A stretch of DNA of 45,637 bases from a virus (Duplodnaviria > Heunggongvirae > Uroviricota > Caudoviricetes), in the IMG/VR virus record IMGVR_UViG_2529292910_000009, positions 1-45,637 of that record, one strand, 5' to 3'. Below are positions 27,001-33,000 of the stretch, in pieces; the stretch's first letter is position 1, and each line of letters opens with the position of its first letter. Made by a program: the position numbers.

Positions 27001-30000
27001 TCAGCTTCCTGTTTTGTAGCCACGGCATGACCGCTGATTAACAAAACTTTCCACTGTTCTGGTTTTAGCCATCTGCCGCACCACTGAACCTGTCGGGAGA
27101 TATCAGCGACCATCGCGTGAAATTTGGCATTTTGATCGAGATTCCGCTTGTAATCGGTGATGCGGATCGTAACGGGTTTGTCTTTATCGAGAGTTGTTGC
27201 AAGGATGGCGTTAATGGCGAATTGTTGCTGCTGCTTACTTCGGAGGAAGATAGTCTGGTTCATTATTCCCTCTCACTGGATTTTCCCAACAAAAAAGGAG
27301 CCGAAGCTCCTTTAGTTTCAGAATTCAAATTGTCTTGCCCGCAGGCTTTTCAGCATTGGCATGGCCCGCTGGATAATGGAACTTGACATGTCGAGACGTG
27401 TTACCTCCCTTAGTAGCGCGTCTCTGTTCTTCGTCACCATGTAGATGGTCTCAAACGCAATGTCATACAGCTTGTTCGTGTATGAGGAGTTCAGCTCTTT
27501 CATAATGGGATACAGGTGTTTGCTTAGGTCCTGGGCTTTTTCCATCCAGAGCTGCATGTAGCAAAGGAGGATGATTTCTTCGGCTGTGAATTGTGGCTGA
27601 ATCTGCGGCTGCTGTTCGGTTGGTGCTGTTTTTCCCTGGCTGAAATAGCAGTCTTCCAGTTTTTCGAATACCTCCCACGCCTGATCAGTTTCGAGCATTT
27701 TTGCGTGACGGGCTGCGCCGCGTTCTGTCCATAGGATGAGGGAGCGAACGTTACGGGCAATTTTCACAGAGTAGTTAAAAGCTACTCTGTGCTTGAACTC
27801 ACGTAAAGTTTCACCTTCAAGTTTGAAGAAGTGTTTTTCCTCAATGAAACGACCTTTGTTTTCGTGGTGATTCTGGCGAATACGAATAGCTTCTGTGCCG
27901 TAAAGGTGCGCCAAAAGTTCGGTAGTGATAACGGGGATCTGCTTGTAAGTAATCGTGGAGAGTGTTTCAACAGAAACTTGAGTTGTCATAATGACGCCCT
28001 CGAGTGGTTTCTAAACTATCACCACCGTCAGGTTCCTAATCATCGGGTGGCGAGACGTACAGGGTTAGGAACTACCGGGAAACCAACCGGCGAGCTTTTC
28101 AGCTCCCCTATACGCCCCACCATAATTCAGATGTGCGTGTGCATACGACAATAAAAAACACGCTCGCGGCGTGTCTCTGTCGCGGTTTCTATCCGGGGTT
28201 CCTAATCCCGACGCCAGATTTTGCTGGCGTGCGATGAATATAATCCCGGATACGCGACGTTGTCAAACTGATGGCATTGCAGATCCCTACGCAATGTAAC
28301 ACTATGTGTTATACATTAATAACGGAACAAAAAATGCGCATTTTTAAAAACGCCTGGTTTGAGCGATTTGCACGCAAAAACAAAATATCCGACCAGTCAC
28401 TGCGCGAAATTGTTAAACAGGCTGATAACGGGCTTATCTCAGCAAACCTGGGTAACGGCGTTATCAAGCAACGTCTGCCACGAGTCGGTGGCGGCAAATC
28501 TGGCGGTTATCGCACAATCATTTTCTATCGCGTCGGCACAAGGGCCTTTTTCGTATATGCATACGCAAAAAATGAACGTGAAAATATAACCGCTACTGAG
28601 GCATTTCGGAAGGGGCTCCTCACGTACTCAATCTAACAGATGAACAACTGGCACAACTGATTCTACAGGGTCAGTTTACGGAGGTACCCAATGAGTAAAA
28701 ATTACCGCAGTGATGCGCTTGCATCCGTACATGAAATGATGGAATCGCTTCATGATATCGGCGCAGTAACGAAACAGACTATGCGAGAATTCGATGAAAC
28801 TTGTCTCCAGCCAGCGCCGGTAATGTCTCCGGAAAGGATCCGTGCACTGCGCGAACGAGAGCATCTGTCTCAACCTGTTTTTGCCAGATACCTCAACGTC
28901 AGTAAAAACCTGATATCAGACTGGGAACGTGGTGTAAAACGGCCGGGAGGTGCCGCTCTTCGCCTTCTTTCAGTCGTAGAGAAAAACGGAATCCAGGTAA
29001 TATCATGATACTCCAATACAACAAAACCCGCCGAAGCGGGTTTTCATTAGAAGCACCTTTAGTTTTGCTGTTCTATTTTAAGCTTGATAGTTTCATACAA
29101 AACAATAGTTGCGCCTGTTTTACATAATTCCCGGCTGTCATACGCACGAGACCAATAACACAACCAGTTCTCGAGATCTTCTCGAGTATAGGTTTTGCAG
29201 GCCAGTCCCTCTGCCATTTCCACGATTTCATCGCCTGGTGCTGTTAACTCATAGCCATTCAACAACAAGAAGACATAACCAGCCATCATAGCTGTTCGTT
29301 TGTTTGCATTAGCAAATGGATGATTCTGAATCAGACTTTCAATCAATACTGATGCCAGTACAAACATGTCATTAGTCTGTTCATACCATCGAACCATGCT
29401 GGGACGAGACTGAGAAGAACTTAAATTATCAACACTCAGCACACTAACAGGTTCATCTGGTGTTTGAAGCTCAATTAAAAGGCGATTAATTTCGGTAAGA
29501 TCATCAAACGAAAGGTAGTGCACTCCTTCAACAATCTCAGCCATAGAGCACAATACCCATCATTACACTTTTGAAAGTTCTTCCATTGCCTTCTCGTAAC
29601 GAGAAAAACCGAAATCGAAAGCATTTTTCACCTGCTCACGATGAGTGCAATTTTCATCGATAGCCGGGCGCGGAGCTGCCACAACGCTTTTATCGCGAGG
29701 GGGAATAGTCAATCGCGGGTGTTTTTTTAGTGCGTAGCTCATTGGGTGTACCCTTACTTCTCCGTCCTGTTCTTTAACAAAAATCAAGTCAATACAAAAT
29801 TAGTCAGGCTAATGTTGTTAGCATAGCCTAATACCGATCGTATTCACAACCACAGTACGTGAAAAAACCCGCCGAAGCGGGTTAAGTGCGGGTGCGTTGA
29901 GGATGCCTGACACATCAGAGGTGGCGAGGGATTTCTCCCTCGCCTGGTCTCTTACTCCTCAGGTTCGTAAGCTGTGAAGACAGTGACCTCCGTCTGGCCG

Positions 30001-33000
30001 GTTCGGATTCGTACCTCGCAGAGGTCTTTCCTCGTTACCAGTGCCGTCACAATGACGGTAATACAGATGACGATCAGGGCGACTAACATCGCCTTTTGCT
30101 GCTTCATAGCCTGCTTCTCCTTGCCTTTCGGCGCGTAAGAGGCTAACCTACATGTGTCTAGCATGAAATTGGCCTCAGATTAATGTTAGGCGTCTTGCAG
30201 GACGCGTAATGTTAACTGGGGCTTTTCTCTGTCTGCCTTACGGTGGCATGCCCGAGGCAGACAGCCTCAAGCACCCGCAGCAATTCTACTTAACTCTCGC
30301 TTTACCGCAAACCGTTTTTACCCGATATGGGAATTCCCATATCGTAATGAATTCAGTTCCCTAGTCGATCCATCAAAAACACAACCAGGCAGTAAACGCC
30401 CACAACAGCAATAACAGCCAGCGCACCTTCCATTGCCAGTGATATATCATCCGACATATTCCCTCCTTTGGTGTTAATCCCGGCGAACGTTTTTACCCCC
30501 ACCGACAAATAACATATACTAAAAAATCAATAGCTATAGCAACGCCTGTAATTGCAAAGGCTTCAAGCCAGATCATTGGCGCACCTCCAGCGGCGGTTCT
30601 GGTAGCGGCATCCAGTCGGTTACATTGCGGCTCTGTGTTTCGAAAAATTCATCACCATCACGGACTACATCAAAAAACTCACCGTCTCGATATTGCGCAT
30701 AAAGAACGAATGCGCCATCACATAAAATAATTACGTGCTGACCGTCATCCGGCATTCGCTCACTACAGCTTATCCAACCATCCAGAGTTACCGGATGGTT
30801 GGTTGACGTTTCCGAGATTTCCCGAAAATTATTGGTTGACGAACCCTTCTTTTCCCGAAAGTTTCCAGCCTGAAGCATGGCGGCGCTGTCTGGCGGGGCA
30901 GCATATAGCGGCACGTATATTTCCGGTTCCTTATCAGCACCGGGTTGCTCTTCCAGTGAGAATGTCTTTCCGGTAAATCGATTCATATAAAGCACGGGCT
31001 CTGCTTCCAGCGAAGCCTGAGCAACAAGGGCCAGTGCTAAATCCAACTCAATTGCCTCGAGAGAATTTTTGAATGCTGTCTGTTTTACTGCAAATTTCAT
31101 CGCCTTTACATTTTCACTAACATGACTGATTAACTGCTCTTTTGTAAAAGTGGTCATCTCATTCTCCTTTGATGCGAATGCCAGCGACAATTGAAGCCTG
31201 ATAGCTAATTTACTCACAGTACCGCCTCCTGAAAATTCCCCTGATAGAAAGCCAGCACGCGCTGCATAACTTCACTATTCCGGCACTCGCGACAGATTAT
31301 GTTCAGGCGTCTATCGTAGCGGCGAATTTCTCCGTCTGGTAACTTTCGAATCAATGTCTGGTCAGTTGTTTTCTCCGGTGTCTTACGCCATACGCGATAC
31401 ACCTGTTCTGATGCAAAAACACCGTATTTACCGGACATGTATAAATCGCCACAAGCCAGTACATCCACAAGGCAACGTCTGACTGAATGCCAGCCTGCTC
31501 CCGTCGCTCTCTCCAGTTGCGATATCGTCATGCGTTCATTTTTGCGTACCAATCCGATAATTCGTGCCTTCAGTTCTTCCCGCTGTTCGTGTGTAAAAGG
31601 TTTCGCCATAAGCGCCTCCGGCAATCACTTTTCCGACACAATACGACCGGATGAATCGACAATCTGTCGAACAATATCCCGGTGCTTGTTCAGCTCCCGC
31701 AGCGCGGCGCAGACTCGCTCCCACTTCTGGACCTGTTTTTTGGCGCGACGAAGTTCTCGACTGGCAGCATGCAGCGATGGAAGCATCACCGAACTGGCAG
31801 ATTTTTCGGTGAATGATGGAACTTCTCGGATAAACTCATCTGTACTGGCCTTTGCCGTGCTCTCTGATGCCAACGGAAAACGATTCATTTCATCGCCTGC
31901 CGCGCTGTTTTCTGCGTCATGGTGTGATTGCTTATTCTGCGATGATAAGGCGCTCAAATCGCCGTTTTCGACATCAGGCATTTTGTAACGGAATTTTCCG
32001 TTGCTGATCTCGCGTACCAGGCGTCTCGTTGCTGTTACCACCGCCAACGTGGAAGCAACCTTACGAGTGCTGACACCGAACTTCCCCGCCAGTTCCTCAC
32101 AGGTTTTAGCCCCCTCCTGAGAGATAAACTCAATCATCATGTCAGCGCTAACTTTTGGAGCGACCTCTTCGGTCAGCATATCCTGTGTTTCAGATTTTAC
32201 TGGCCGCTCTTCGGTTACCCCGGCTTCACCTTCGACAGCCAGAAACCAGGTGTGACCCGTTTTATCAACAACGCCATTTTTTTTGAGCTCCCACAGTTCG
32301 TTGAGAACTTCTTCACGGCTGATATCAAGCCGCGCCGCCAGTTCAACAGAATTGGCTTTTCCCATCGCTTTCAGTGCATGCAATACGGTTTCCATCGAAA
32401 ATTTACCTCGTCAAAAATTCTCACATACCCTGACGTCCAACGTTTGACCGCCAGCTCTCCCAGTTAAAATTCACCCAACGACCACCGTTCATGGTCATCC
32501 GGTCCATAATCCTCTCACCAAGAAGCGTGCTCATTGCGGCATGATTCAGGTTTGTCAGCATCCCAACACTGCGCAGTGATGCCGTCCGGCGGTCAACAAT
32601 CTGGTGCAGTACCACCTGCTCGTTTTTCGTCTCACGCTGGATGCCAATTTCGTCAATAACCAGGAGGTCCACTTCGCACAGTTCACGCAAAAATTTTTCC
32701 CCTGACAGTCCGTCGTCATAGCTGGCATGTAACGCGCTCATCACATCCGCCACGGTGACCACTATCACGGATTTACCGGCCTTCAGCAGACGATTACCCA
32801 CAGCCGCCGCCAGATGATTTTTTCCGGTTCCCGGATTCCCGCTGAACACGAAGTTTGTACACCCGGTCATCAATTCATCGGCAATGGATTTCGCCTGGCT
32901 CAGAGCATGGCGCTGACCGTCGTTCTGCACCCGGTAGTTCCCGAATGAGCACTTCCTGTGAAGGGGCTGGATGCCCGCACGGTTCAGGATTTTTTCAACC

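What the first reader, a model, noticed from the sequence alone, without database searches (positions are those of the whole stretch)
29862..30330. hok/sok-type locus inside the pR operon
A Gef/Hok-like 51-aa toxin (29952..30107) sits inside a longer overlapping mok-like frame (29952..30164). It has about 170 nt of upstream leader, where a Sok-like antisense promoter would be expected, and a downstream terminator (29862-29881). Such loci in prophages can act as addiction or anti-phage modules.
Basis: partly seen in the sequence, partly recalled or inferred. Interest (0 to 1): 0.45.

Follow-up and report, generated by a model that had tools for sequence, protein, structure and literature searches.

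The report
Intact hok/mok/sok toxin-antitoxin cassette in prophage
This is an ordinary, complete copy of the well-known hok/sok toxin-antitoxin cassette (a small membrane toxin kept silent by an antisense RNA), sitting in the early-gene region of a lambda-like E. coli prophage; it is already annotated in many genomes.

Summary
On the minus strand there is a 51-aa Hok toxin (29952-30107; Pfam HOK_GEF, E=1e-22) inside an in-frame 70-aa mok frame (29952-30164). A 169-nt leader precedes it and matches Rfam sok (RF01794) over its full length (117 bits against a 59-bit threshold). A hairpin plus T-run terminator lies at 29862-29882.

The other family elements are also present:
- an hok promoter (-10 TAGAAT, transcript start about 30276);
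- a Sok promoter on the plus strand (TTGCCT, 17 nt, TAACCT; 30121-30149), whose predicted start at 30156 aligns with the annotated 5' end of K-12 SokC;
- a predicted 77-nt Sok RNA (30156-30232);
- the 5'-3' tac/fbi pairing, which covaries in homologues from other genera;
- a predicted tac/ucb/dcb refolding switch that frees the mok ribosome site once the 3' end is removed.

The same DNA (100% identical) is annotated as hokD in E. coli AST198. The toxin is 94% identical to K-12 HokD/RelF and 86% to HokW of prophage Sp5, which has been characterised experimentally. K-12's own hokD lacks everything upstream of 30121, so this copy is the intact form. The cassette lies between the replication genes and ninB-Q, co-oriented with pR, as in phages mEp460 and HannyBb.

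Verdict: already known, low interest. Its role in the prophage (stabilisation, help with lysis, or abortive infection) is inferred only.

The parts
30283..30310 (-). hok/mok mRNA promoter: -35 TTGCGG (30305-30310), 16-nt spacer, -10 TAGAAT (30283-30288). The predicted transcript start is G at 30276.
   Evidence: A -10-like hexamer lies 6-7 nt upstream of the conserved GGGTGC 5' end in all 17 homologous loci examined (the 'up' strings). The generic promoter scan did not flag it.
29862..30276 (-). Predicted full-length hok mRNA, 415 nt.
   Evidence: Minimum free energy is -177.5 kcal/mol, z=-9.1 against 100 shuffles, and the 5' end pairs with the 3' end. The Rfam sok model covers 30102-30276.
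30265..30276 (-). tac element: the 5'-terminal GGGUGCUUGAGG of the mRNA.
   Evidence: It pairs with fbi in the full-length fold and with ucb after 3' truncation. Variant tac sequences in other genera pair best with their own fbi.
30218..30227 (-). ucb (upstream complementary box), mRNA nt 50-59, AAAAGCCCC.
   Evidence: It pairs with the mok ribosome-binding region in the full-length fold and with tac in the fold of nt 1-374. AAAAGCCCC is conserved in the Rfam consensus and GGGGCTTT is invariant in alignment A1.
30179..30217 (-). Sok-target hairpin in the hok leader (mRNA nt 60-98). Its complement forms the Sok stem-loop.
   Evidence: The hairpin appears in both the full-length and the truncated folds. 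It carries a 16-nt insertion relative to the Rfam consensus.
30162..30178 (-). mok translation initiation region (dcb): Shine-Dalgarno GAGG at 30173-30176, AUG at 30162-30164.
   Evidence: Paired with ucb in the full-length fold and unpaired in the fold of nt 1-374. It lies inside the predicted Sok-complementary stretch.
29952..30164 (-). mok reading frame, 70 aa, in frame with hok.
   Evidence: Listed. Same in-frame arrangement as the annotated mokC/hokC pair in K-12. Annotated as 'MokW-like host killing protein' in phage HannyBb.
29952..30107 (-). hok toxin gene, 51 aa.
   Evidence: Pfam HOK_GEF E=1.2e-22. Identity is 94% to K-12 HokD, 86% to HokW and 84% to HokC; C15, T17, L29, E31 and E40 are invariant across 8 Hok proteins. 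The identical DNA is annotated as hokD, protein WP_052977210.1.
30121..30149 (+). Sok promoter: -35 TTGCCT (30121-30126), 17-nt spacer, -10 TAACCT (30144-30149).
   Evidence: Both hexamers are the same in the hokW locus (one spacer base differs), and the region aligns with the hokC locus. The sokW promoter-less mutant of PMC8621323 changes this same hexamer; I inferred that by reading primer YO-421 against the hokW-type sequence. The match to the consensus is only 7 of 12, and the generic scan did not flag it.
30156..30232 (+). Predicted Sok antisense RNA, about 77 nt: a 9-nt single-stranded 5' tail, a long hairpin (30180-30215) and a U-rich 3' end.
   Evidence: Both ends were transferred from annotated K-12 SokC (16952..17010) through alignment A1. 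The fold gives -32.9 kcal/mol, z=-6.2. It is perfectly complementary to hok mRNA nt 45-121, which include ucb, the target hairpin and the mok SD and AUG.
29890..29902 (-). fbi (fold-back inhibition) element, CCUCAACGCACCC.
   Evidence: It pairs with tac. Only 4 of 400 random 180-nt segments of the window gave a duplex with tac as good as this one.
29862..29882 (-). Intrinsic terminator of the hok mRNA (ACCCGC-TTCG-GCGGGT followed by T6).
   Evidence: An identical 20-nt copy lies at 29023-29042.

Best explanation
This is a complete hokD/hokW-type member of the hok/mok/sok type I toxin-antitoxin family, carried as a self-contained cassette of about 450 bp (own promoter to own terminator) in the early-right region of a lambdoid E. 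coli prophage.

How it most likely works, step by step. 'Shown in silico' means the structure prediction here supports it. 'Inferred' means it is taken from what is established for R1 hok/sok and Sp5 hokW-sokW.
1. A stable 415-nt hok mRNA is made from its own weak promoter. Its 5' tac element pairs with the 3' fbi element, and ucb pairs with the mok ribosome-binding site, so the mRNA can neither be translated nor bind Sok. The fold is shown in silico. That it blocks translation and Sok binding is inferred.
2. Slow 3' trimming removes fbi. tac then pairs with ucb, and the mok SD and AUG become free. The refolding is shown in silico. The trimming itself is inferred.
3. An unstable Sok RNA of about 77 nt, made constantly from the opposite strand, pairs with the leader across the mok start. 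This blocks mok translation, and therefore the coupled hok translation, and marks the duplex for RNase III. Complementarity follows from the sequence. The rest is inferred.
4. When Sok synthesis stops, through loss of the element, transcription shut-off or prophage induction, the stored mRNA is translated. Hok inserts into the inner membrane and collapses it. Inferred.

For the prophage the most likely benefits are faster lysis on induction, as shown for hokW-sokW, and stabilisation of the prophage. Neither was tested here.
For: Family membership:
- Pfam HOK_GEF, E=1.2e-22.
- Rfam sok full-length match, 116.9 bits against a gathering score of 59.
- In-frame mok ORF, matching annotated mokC/hokC.
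- 100% identical DNA annotated as hokD in E. coli AST198. Matches occur in 4721 of 5426 complete E. coli genomes, and 740 genomes cover at least 80% of the query.

mRNA structure:
- The full-length mRNA folds with tac-fbi pairing, z=-9.1.
- Removing the last 41 nt switches tac onto ucb and unpairs the mok SD and AUG.
- tac-fbi complementarity is kept in loci from Erwinia, Photorhabdus, Cedecea, Kosakonia, three further genome loci (L097, L126, L128) and IncF/IncHI plasmids. Loci with a changed tac (L097, L005, L058, L024) pair best with their own fbi.
- K-12 hokC, which has IS186 inserted 20 bp after its stop codon, lacks this pairing and serves as a control.

Sok:
- The -35, the -10 and the predicted start at 30156 align with the annotated 5' end of SokC. 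Both promoter hexamers are the same as in the hokW locus.
- The sokW promoter mutation that abolishes antitoxin activity in PMC8621323 appears to change the same -10 hexamer. This is my reading of primer YO-421.
- The predicted Sok RNA folds at z=-6.2.

Position:
- The same locus sits between the replication genes and Q in phages mEp460 and HannyBb.
- 78 of 80 HokD-like loci from viral contigs keep the full leader.
Against: - Nothing here measures expression, toxicity or RNA stability.
- Both promoters are weak matches to the sigma-70 consensus. The generic scan found neither, and it also missed the terminator.
- The NCBIfam Hok models score below their curated cut-offs: NF007279 at 46.8 against 73, and the HokA model at 37.6 against 89. 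These models represent other subfamilies.
- Chromosomal hok loci that look intact (hokA of E. coli C, hokB of K-12, hokC of ECOR24) were reported not to mediate post-segregational killing, as cited in preprint 10.1101/2025.08.07.668861. An intact architecture therefore does not prove that function.
- The second conserved cysteine is a tyrosine here (Y47), so full toxicity may depend on RNA editing.
Confidence: 0.93

Rival explanations
1. The cassette is structurally intact but functionally silent. Like several chromosomal hok loci, it would give no post-segregational killing and no effect on the phage.
For: Preprint 10.1101/2025.08.07.668861 cites earlier work reporting that intact chromosomal hokA, hokB and hokC loci do not mediate post-segregational killing and are not activated by rifampicin. 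Both promoters here are weak consensus matches. Y47 stands where HokA and HokB have a cysteine.
Against: All regulatory elements are intact, whereas the K-12 copies are broken by IS elements or truncated. 78 of 80 phage-borne relatives keep the full leader, which argues for selection. The 86%-identical HokW, which also has Y at this position, is toxic and active in its prophage (PMC8621323). HokD itself is among the Hok sequences that the same preprint used as toxic controls.
Confidence: 0.12
2. The cassette's main role is abortive-infection defence. When a lytic phage such as T4 shuts off host transcription, Sok decays, Hok is made, and the cell dies before the phage completes its cycle.
For: R1 hok/sok on a high-copy plasmid lowered the T4 plating efficiency by 42% and plaque size by about 85%, as cited in PMC8621323. 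The cassette sits in a cluster of toxin-antitoxin genes, with phd/doc-like and higBA-like pairs next to it. Such clusters are typical of prophage accessory or defence regions.
Against: The reported R1 effect is modest and was obtained at high copy number. The Hok survey found no enrichment of hok next to defence systems. Nothing in the sequence can separate this role from the others.
Confidence: 0.2
3. hok is simply one gene of the pR transcript, a holin-like membrane protein made from the early operon, and antisense control plays no real part.
For: It is co-oriented with pR and lies between the replication genes and Q. In distinct phage contexts the upstream neighbour is co-oriented in 28 of 38 cases.
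Against: The cassette carries its own conserved promoter, terminator, Sok promoter and tac/fbi/ucb elements. None of these would be maintained for a plain operon gene. It also recurs as a unit in at least 38 different upstream contexts.
Confidence: 0.04

Closest known systems
hokD (relF) of the Qin cryptic prophage, E. coli K-12
   Same: The toxin is 94% identical (48 of 51 residues). The DNA is 96.9% identical from window 30121 through the terminator. RefSeq's annotation pipeline names the identical protein HokD. Both copies are prophage-borne.
   Different: The K-12 copy has lost everything upstream of 30121: the hok promoter, tac, ucb, the mok start and the whole Sok RNA body. It sits instead directly behind relB-relE. 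The window copy keeps the complete regulatory leader, so it represents the intact form.
hokW-sokW of Sakai prophage 5 / Stx2 phages (Takada et al. 2021, PMC8621323)
   Same: About 91% nucleotide identity over 441 bp and 86% protein identity. The Sok promoter hexamers are the same, and the leader architecture, including the long Sok hairpin, matches. It is also carried by a lambdoid prophage. [quoted passage not shown]
   Different: The C-terminus differs (VDYESEK against TAYEPEE). In Stx2 phage I the cassette lies beyond int and attP, near the tail-fibre end, not between the replication genes and Q.
hok/mok/sok of plasmid R1 (the founding example of the family)
   Same: The parts list and predicted logic are the same: Hok toxin, overlapping mok, antisense Sok, tac/fbi/ucb/dcb refolding, and activation by 3' trimming. 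The R1 mechanism is established knowledge; the matching structures here come.
   Different: Protein identity to R1-like plasmid Hok is only about 27-39%. Here mok is in frame with hok, as in mokC/hokC. In K-12 mokB/hokB the two genes end at different positions that are not a multiple of three apart, so they are in different frames. I did not check the mok frame of R1 itself. The carrier is a prophage, not a plasmid.
hokC (gef)/mokC/sokC of E. coli K-12
   Same: 84% protein identity and 75% DNA identity over 362 bp. mok is in frame. The annotated SokC ends map onto the predicted Sok here.
   Different: In K-12, IS186 sits 20 bp after the hokC stop codon and removes fbi. The Sok hairpin is about 18 nt shorter. 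The location is chromosomal, not in a prophage.

Membership tests
hok/sok (Hok/Gef) type I toxin-antitoxin family | A Hok toxin of about 50 aa that matches the Hok/Gef protein family. | tested here: met
   Pfam PF01848, E=1.2e-22, 79.7 bits against a cut-off of 22, profile positions 1-42 of 42.
hok/sok (Hok/Gef) type I toxin-antitoxin family | An N-terminal hydrophobic helix and the conserved C...T and L-C-E core residues. | tested here: met
   C15, T17, L29, E31 and E40 are invariant across 8 Hok proteins, including HokA-E, HokW and a plasmid Hok. C30 is present.
hok/sok (Hok/Gef) type I toxin-antitoxin family | A mok reading frame that starts upstream of hok and overlaps it. | tested here: met
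   A 70-aa ORF at 29952..30164 with GAGG 8 nt before its ATG. Same layout as annotated mokC.
hok/sok (Hok/Gef) type I toxin-antitoxin family | The conserved, structured hok leader (Rfam RF01794). | tested here: met
   116.9 bits against a gathering score of 59, E=4e-26, model positions 1-157 of 157. The model lies on the hok-sense strand, so the hit marks the leader. Sok is the complement of part of it.
hok/sok (Hok/Gef) type I toxin-antitoxin family | A cis-encoded antisense Sok RNA with its own promoter, complementary to the mok translation start region. | tested here: met
   This is met in sequence only. TTGCCT, 17 nt, TAACCT at 30121-30149(+). The predicted start at 30156 aligns with the annotated SokC 5' end. 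The hairpin plus U-tail folds at z=-6.2. Transcription was not measured.
hok/sok (Hok/Gef) type I toxin-antitoxin family | Long-range tac-fbi pairing of the mRNA 5' and 3' ends. | tested here: met
   Present in the minimum-free-energy fold (z=-9.1). A duplex of -21.5 kcal/mol was reached by only 4 of 400 background segments. The pairing covaries across genera.
hok/sok (Hok/Gef) type I toxin-antitoxin family | Alternative tac-ucb and ucb-dcb pairings that free the mok start site after 3' processing. | tested here: met
   This is met in silico only. In the fold of nt 1-374, tac pairs with nt 53-59 and nt 99-112 (mok SD and AUG) become unpaired.
hok/sok (Hok/Gef) type I toxin-antitoxin family | Hok is toxic, Sok neutralises it, and the mRNA is stable while the antisense RNA is unstable. 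| not testable with these tools
   Shown only for relatives: HokW/sokW (PMC8621323), and HokD among the toxic controls of the Hok survey.
NCBIfam Hok subfamily models (NF007279 Hok family; NF007290 HokA) | A score at or above the curated cut-off. | tested here: not met
   46.8 against 73 and 37.6 against 89 bits. These models represent other Hok subfamilies. RefSeq nevertheless names the identical protein HokD.
K-12-type hokD locus (relB-relE-hokD operon) | hokD fused behind relBE, with no mok start, no Sok and no tac. | tested here: not met
   Homology to the K-12 locus starts only at window 30121. The window has the full leader and no relBE upstream. It shares the HokD protein type but not the K-12 locus layout.

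The most novel reading that the evidence does not exclude
The cassette may be co-oriented with an antiterminated early operon for a reason. That operon is pR here. In Sp5-type phages it would be pL reading across attP once the genome has circularised.

On induction, strong sense-direction read-through would run head-on into the Sok promoter (30121-30149, plus strand) and shut off Sok by transcriptional interference. Hok release would then be coupled to prophage induction. This would answer a question that Takada et al. 2021 left open: why sokW RNA vanishes on RecA-dependent induction.

Support so far is circumstantial:
- hok is co-oriented with pR in this window.
- hokW is co-oriented with xis and int in Stx2 phage I.
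- The nearest upstream ORF is co-oriented in 28 of 38 distinct phage contexts.
Probability: 0.2. Interest if true: 0.45.

Novelty: already known. Interest (0 to 1): 0.1.

Why it matters
The finding has little importance as a discovery. The family has been known since the 1980s. This exact sequence is already annotated as hokD in RefSeq. A 91%-identical prophage locus, hokW-sokW, has been characterised experimentally, and a recent survey reports that hok is enriched in prophages.

Its value is for annotation. It shows what the truncated K-12 hokD looked like before relBE replaced its leader, and it gives base-level coordinates for mok, Sok, tac, ucb, dcb and fbi, which genome annotation omits. 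It also gives a convenient natural setting, a hok cassette lying in the path of pR transcription, in which to test how prophage induction switches Sok off.

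Tried and rejected
1. The generic promoter and terminator scan of 29700-30500 returned one unrelated promoter-like site and one weak terminator-like site. It missed both hok/sok promoters and the real terminator. The promoters were placed by homology instead.
About 10 of the 120 loci held a real hok.
3. I meant to run a formal pair count on a tac/fbi mini-alignment (A2). The ungapped MAFFT alignment put loci with and without the bulged base, and loci with a 1-nt 5' offset, out of register. I used a tac-by-fbi duplex-energy matrix instead.
4. I looked for a tRNA-Arg-like hairpin that would present the UACG editing motif at Tyr47. The local fold is no better than shuffled sequence (z=0.2), so the editing site rests on the motif and the literature only.
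5. I considered that the Rfam 'sok' hit marks the antisense RNA itself. This is rejected: the model ends at the hok AUG on the hok strand, so it describes the leader.
6. I considered that the locus is a decayed relic like K-12 hokA, hokC, hokD or hokE. This is rejected because no IS element or truncation is present.

Full report
**1. The observation**

All features lie on the minus strand.
- ORF 29952..30107 encodes MKQQKAMLVALIVICITVIVTALVTRKDLCEVRIRTGQTEVTVFTAYEPEE, 51 aa. It matches Pfam HOK_GEF over the whole profile: E=1.2e-22, 79.7 bits against a cut-off of 22.
- A 70-aa ATG-started frame, 29952..30164, contains it in the same reading frame. This matches the annotated mokC/hokC pair of E. 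coli K-12.
- A scan of the whole window against Rfam placed family RF01794 ('sok') at 30102-30276 on the minus strand. The match is full length: 116.9 bits against a gathering score of 59, E=4e-26. The model ends at the hok AUG on the hok strand, so this hit describes the structured hok leader. Sok itself is the complement of part of it.
- The terminator ACCCGCTTCGGCGGGTTTTTT is at 29862-29882 and folds as a hairpin with z=-3.1.

**2. Anatomy**

*The hok promoter.* Upstream of the conserved 5' end GGGTGCTTGAGG (30265-30276) lie TTGCGG (30305-30310) and TAGAAT (30283-30288). A -10-like hexamer at the same distance from the conserved 5' end is present in all 17 homologous loci I extracted. This supports a transcript start at about 30276 and a full-length mRNA of 415 nt.

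*The full-length fold.* This RNA folds at -177.5 kcal/mol, against -129.8 +/- 5.2 for shuffles (z=-9.1). Its first 11-12 nt pair with CCUCAACGCACCC at 29890-29902. This is the tac-fbi 'fold-back' pairing known from R1 hok mRNA. In the same fold, AAAAGCCCC (nt 50-59, ucb) pairs with the mok Shine-Dalgarno and AUG region (nt 99-112, dcb).

*The predicted switch.* I removed the last 41 nt to imitate the 3' trimming known for R1. The predicted structure then changes: tac pairs with ucb (nt 53-59), and the mok SD (nt 101-104) and AUG (nt 113-115) become single-stranded. The refolding switch that defines this family is thus reproduced by structure prediction alone.

*Sok.* On the plus strand, TTGCCT (30121-30126), a 17-nt spacer and TAACCT (30144-30149) precede a G at 30156.
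- In an alignment with five related loci, this G lines up with the annotated 5' end of K-12 SokC. The SokC 3' end maps to 30232.
- The predicted 77-nt RNA has a 9-nt free 5' tail, a long hairpin (30180-30215) and a U-rich end. It folds at -32.9 kcal/mol, z=-6.2.
- It is perfectly complementary to hok mRNA nt 45-121, covering ucb, the target hairpin and the mok start.
- Both promoter hexamers are the same as in the hokW-type locus of Stx2 phage I; one spacer base differs. Comparing primer YO-421 with that sequence, the 'promoter-less' sokW mutation that abolishes antitoxin activity appears to change this same -10 hexamer (PMC8621323).

**3. Comparative support**

A pattern scan of species-representative genomes, plus hits from the plasmid, phage and K-12 collections, gave 17 loci that encode Hok. 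Those scanned against Rfam all match the sok model over its full length.
- tac-fbi complementarity is retained in every intact locus except one from Enterobacillus.
- Where tac differs, fbi differs with it. Examples: GGGUGCUCUGGAUC with GAUCCAUGAGCACCC in L097; GGGCGCUUGAGA with UCUCAAGCGCCC in Photorhabdus; GGGUGCUUAGGGUU with AGCCUUAAGCACCC in Cedecea.
- In a tac-by-fbi duplex-energy matrix, each of the four divergent tac variants pairs best with its own fbi.
- Only 4 of 400 random 180-nt segments of the window gave a duplex with the window's tac as good as the real one.
- K-12 hokC, whose 3' end is cut off by IS186 20 bp after the stop codon, shows no such pairing. It serves as a control.

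**4. What it is related to**

The 601 bp around the locus are 100% identical to a prophage of E. coli AST198, where the gene is annotated 'hokD: type I toxin-antitoxin system toxin HokD'. Matches occur in 4721 of 5426 complete E. coli genomes, and 740 genomes cover at least 80% of the query. In the phage collection, 101 records match, with annotations such as 'gef', 'host killer protein', 'MokW protein' and 'HokD toxin'.

| Protein | Identity to this Hok |
|---|---|
| K-12 HokD/RelF | 94% |
| HokW | 86% |
| HokC/Gef | 84% |
| HokA, HokB, HokE, a plasmid Hok | 27-36% |

The K-12 hokD locus is homologous only from window 30121 downstream, at 96.9% identity. In K-12, relB-relE stand where the promoter, tac, ucb, the mok start and Sok should be. 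The window therefore holds the intact form of what K-12 keeps as a truncated remnant.

The NCBIfam Hok models score below their cut-offs. They represent other subfamilies.

**5. Context**

The window is a lambdoid prophage.
- On the plus strand: a cI-like repressor with HTH and S24 peptidase domains (35245-35952).
- On the minus strand, in order: a cro-like ORF, cII, an O-like gene, a DnaC/IstB-like ATPase, DUF1627, DUF977, DUF551, two tiny ORFs, then hok.
- After hok: a phd/doc-like pair, a higBA-like pair on the opposite strand, the isrK and C4 RNAs, an ORF6N/P22-type antirepressor, ninB, rusA, Q and lysozyme.

'Inside the pR operon' is therefore right as a position and an orientation. The cassette is nevertheless autonomous. 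Homology among phages begins at about 30295-30326 and ends at about 29860, which is promoter to terminator.

The same cassette lies between the replication genes and Q in phages mEp460 and HannyBb. In Stx2 phage I (hokW type) it lies beyond int and attP instead.

Among the 80 best HokD-like loci from viral contigs:
- 78 keep the full leader.
- The upstream flank falls into 38 distinct sequence contexts. The nearest ORF is co-oriented in 28, opposite in 9 and mixed in 1.
- The downstream flank falls into only 9 contexts.

The cassette behaves as a mobile, self-contained insert whose upstream junction recombines often.

**6. Mechanism and function**

The mechanism I commit to is the established hok/sok one:
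1. A stable, folded and inert mRNA is stored.
2. Slow 3' trimming makes it competent for translation.
3. A short-lived Sok RNA blocks mok translation, and with it the coupled hok translation, for as long as Sok is made.
4. Hok kills by damaging the inner membrane when Sok synthesis stops.

Shown here, in silico only, are the presence of the elements, their conservation and covariation, and the predicted structural switch. RNA half-lives, RNase involvement, toxicity and every biological role are inferred from relatives.

For the role in the prophage, the best experimental guide is hokW-sokW. After mitomycin C, sokW RNA disappears. HokW then appears in a RecA-dependent manner about 1 h before endolysin, growth arrest starts about 40 min earlier than in the deletion mutant, and twice as many phage are released (PMC8621323). 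Prophage stabilisation and abortive infection remain possible.

Two cautions apply. Several intact chromosomal hok loci were reported not to give post-segregational killing (cited). Tyr47 stands where HokA and HokB have the second cysteine. Its codon is UAC followed by G, the TadA editing context reported for hokB and, according to the preprint, for hokC, hokD and hokE. I could not support a presenting hairpin for it.

**7. An untested idea**

Takada et al. left open why sokW vanishes on induction. Here hok lies in the path of pR transcription. In Sp5-type phages it lies downstream of xis and int across attP. Antiterminated sense read-through running head-on into the Sok promoter could silence Sok and so tie Hok release to induction. 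The bias towards co-orientation (28 of 38 contexts) is compatible with this but does not prove it.

**8. Verdict**

This is a textbook system that is already annotated, and it has a close relative that has been studied experimentally. Novelty: already known. Interest: low.

Noticed in passing
window 30323-30344: A perfect 22-bp palindrome, CGATATGGGAATTCCCATATCG, lies between the stop of a tiny upstream ORF and the hok -35. As RNA it forms a 9-bp hairpin (-14.5 kcal/mol, z=-3.6) with no U-tract after it. The same palindrome occurs upstream of the hok cassette in phage PPompW (L003). It could be a protein-binding site or a barrier to read-through; its function is unknown.
   Followed up: partly
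window 29023-29042 and 29864-29883: The hok terminator core (AAAACCCGCCGAAGCGGGTT) occurs twice as identical 20-nt copies. One copy follows hok and the other follows the doc gene, so the two bracket the phd/doc-like pair.
   Followed up: partly
window 29966-29969 (minus strand): The hok Tyr47 codon is UAC followed by G, the TadA A-to-I editing motif. HokA and HokB have a cysteine at this alignment column. A preprint states that hokC, hokD and hokE mRNAs are edited at this position to give the second cysteine. The local hairpin prediction was no better than shuffled sequence.
   Followed up: partly
window 29059-29742 (minus strand): A type II toxin-antitoxin pair sits directly downstream of hok. 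It consists of a 59-aa ORF with no family match (29563-29742, probably a Phd-like antitoxin) and a Doc/Fic toxin (29059-29553; TIGR01550, E=1.4e-35).
   Followed up: partly
window 28271-29008 (plus strand): A second type II pair lies on the opposite strand, with the toxin first as in higBA. It consists of a RelE-family toxin (28271-28636; Pfam PF06296, E=1e-36) and an HTH antitoxin (28691-29008). Together with hok/sok and phd/doc, this makes three toxin-antitoxin modules within 2 kb.
   Followed up: no
window 28043-28230 (minus strand): Rfam isrK (28153-28230, 69 bits) and C4 antisense RNA (28043-28127, 66 bits) lie directly upstream of an ORF6N/P22-AR-type antirepressor gene (27318-27989). 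The arrangement resembles the P1/P7 immI region.
   Followed up: no
window 24871-25032 (minus strand) and 287-375 (plus strand): Two further Rfam matches. STnc100 (77 bits) lies downstream of the Q antiterminator gene, probably in the late-promoter leader region. sRNA-Xcc1 (69 bits) lies near the left end of the window; the same family also matched near the int/att region of Stx2 phage I (L002).
   Followed up: no
window 30353-30457 and 30493-30576 (minus strand): Two tiny hydrophobic ORFs (34 aa and 27 aa) lie between the DUF551 gene and hok. Neither matches a family. The first is annotated as a hypothetical protein in E. coli AST198.
   Followed up: no
loci L134-L213 (viral contigs): HokD-type cassettes in phage contigs have a very variable upstream junction (38 distinct contexts among 76 loci) but few downstream contexts (9 among 68, with one holding 42 loci). 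This suggests that hok travels together with its downstream neighbour. That neighbour may often be the small rem-like gene seen next to hok in Qin, PPompW and mEp460, but I did not identify the downstream ORFs in these clusters.
   Followed up: partly
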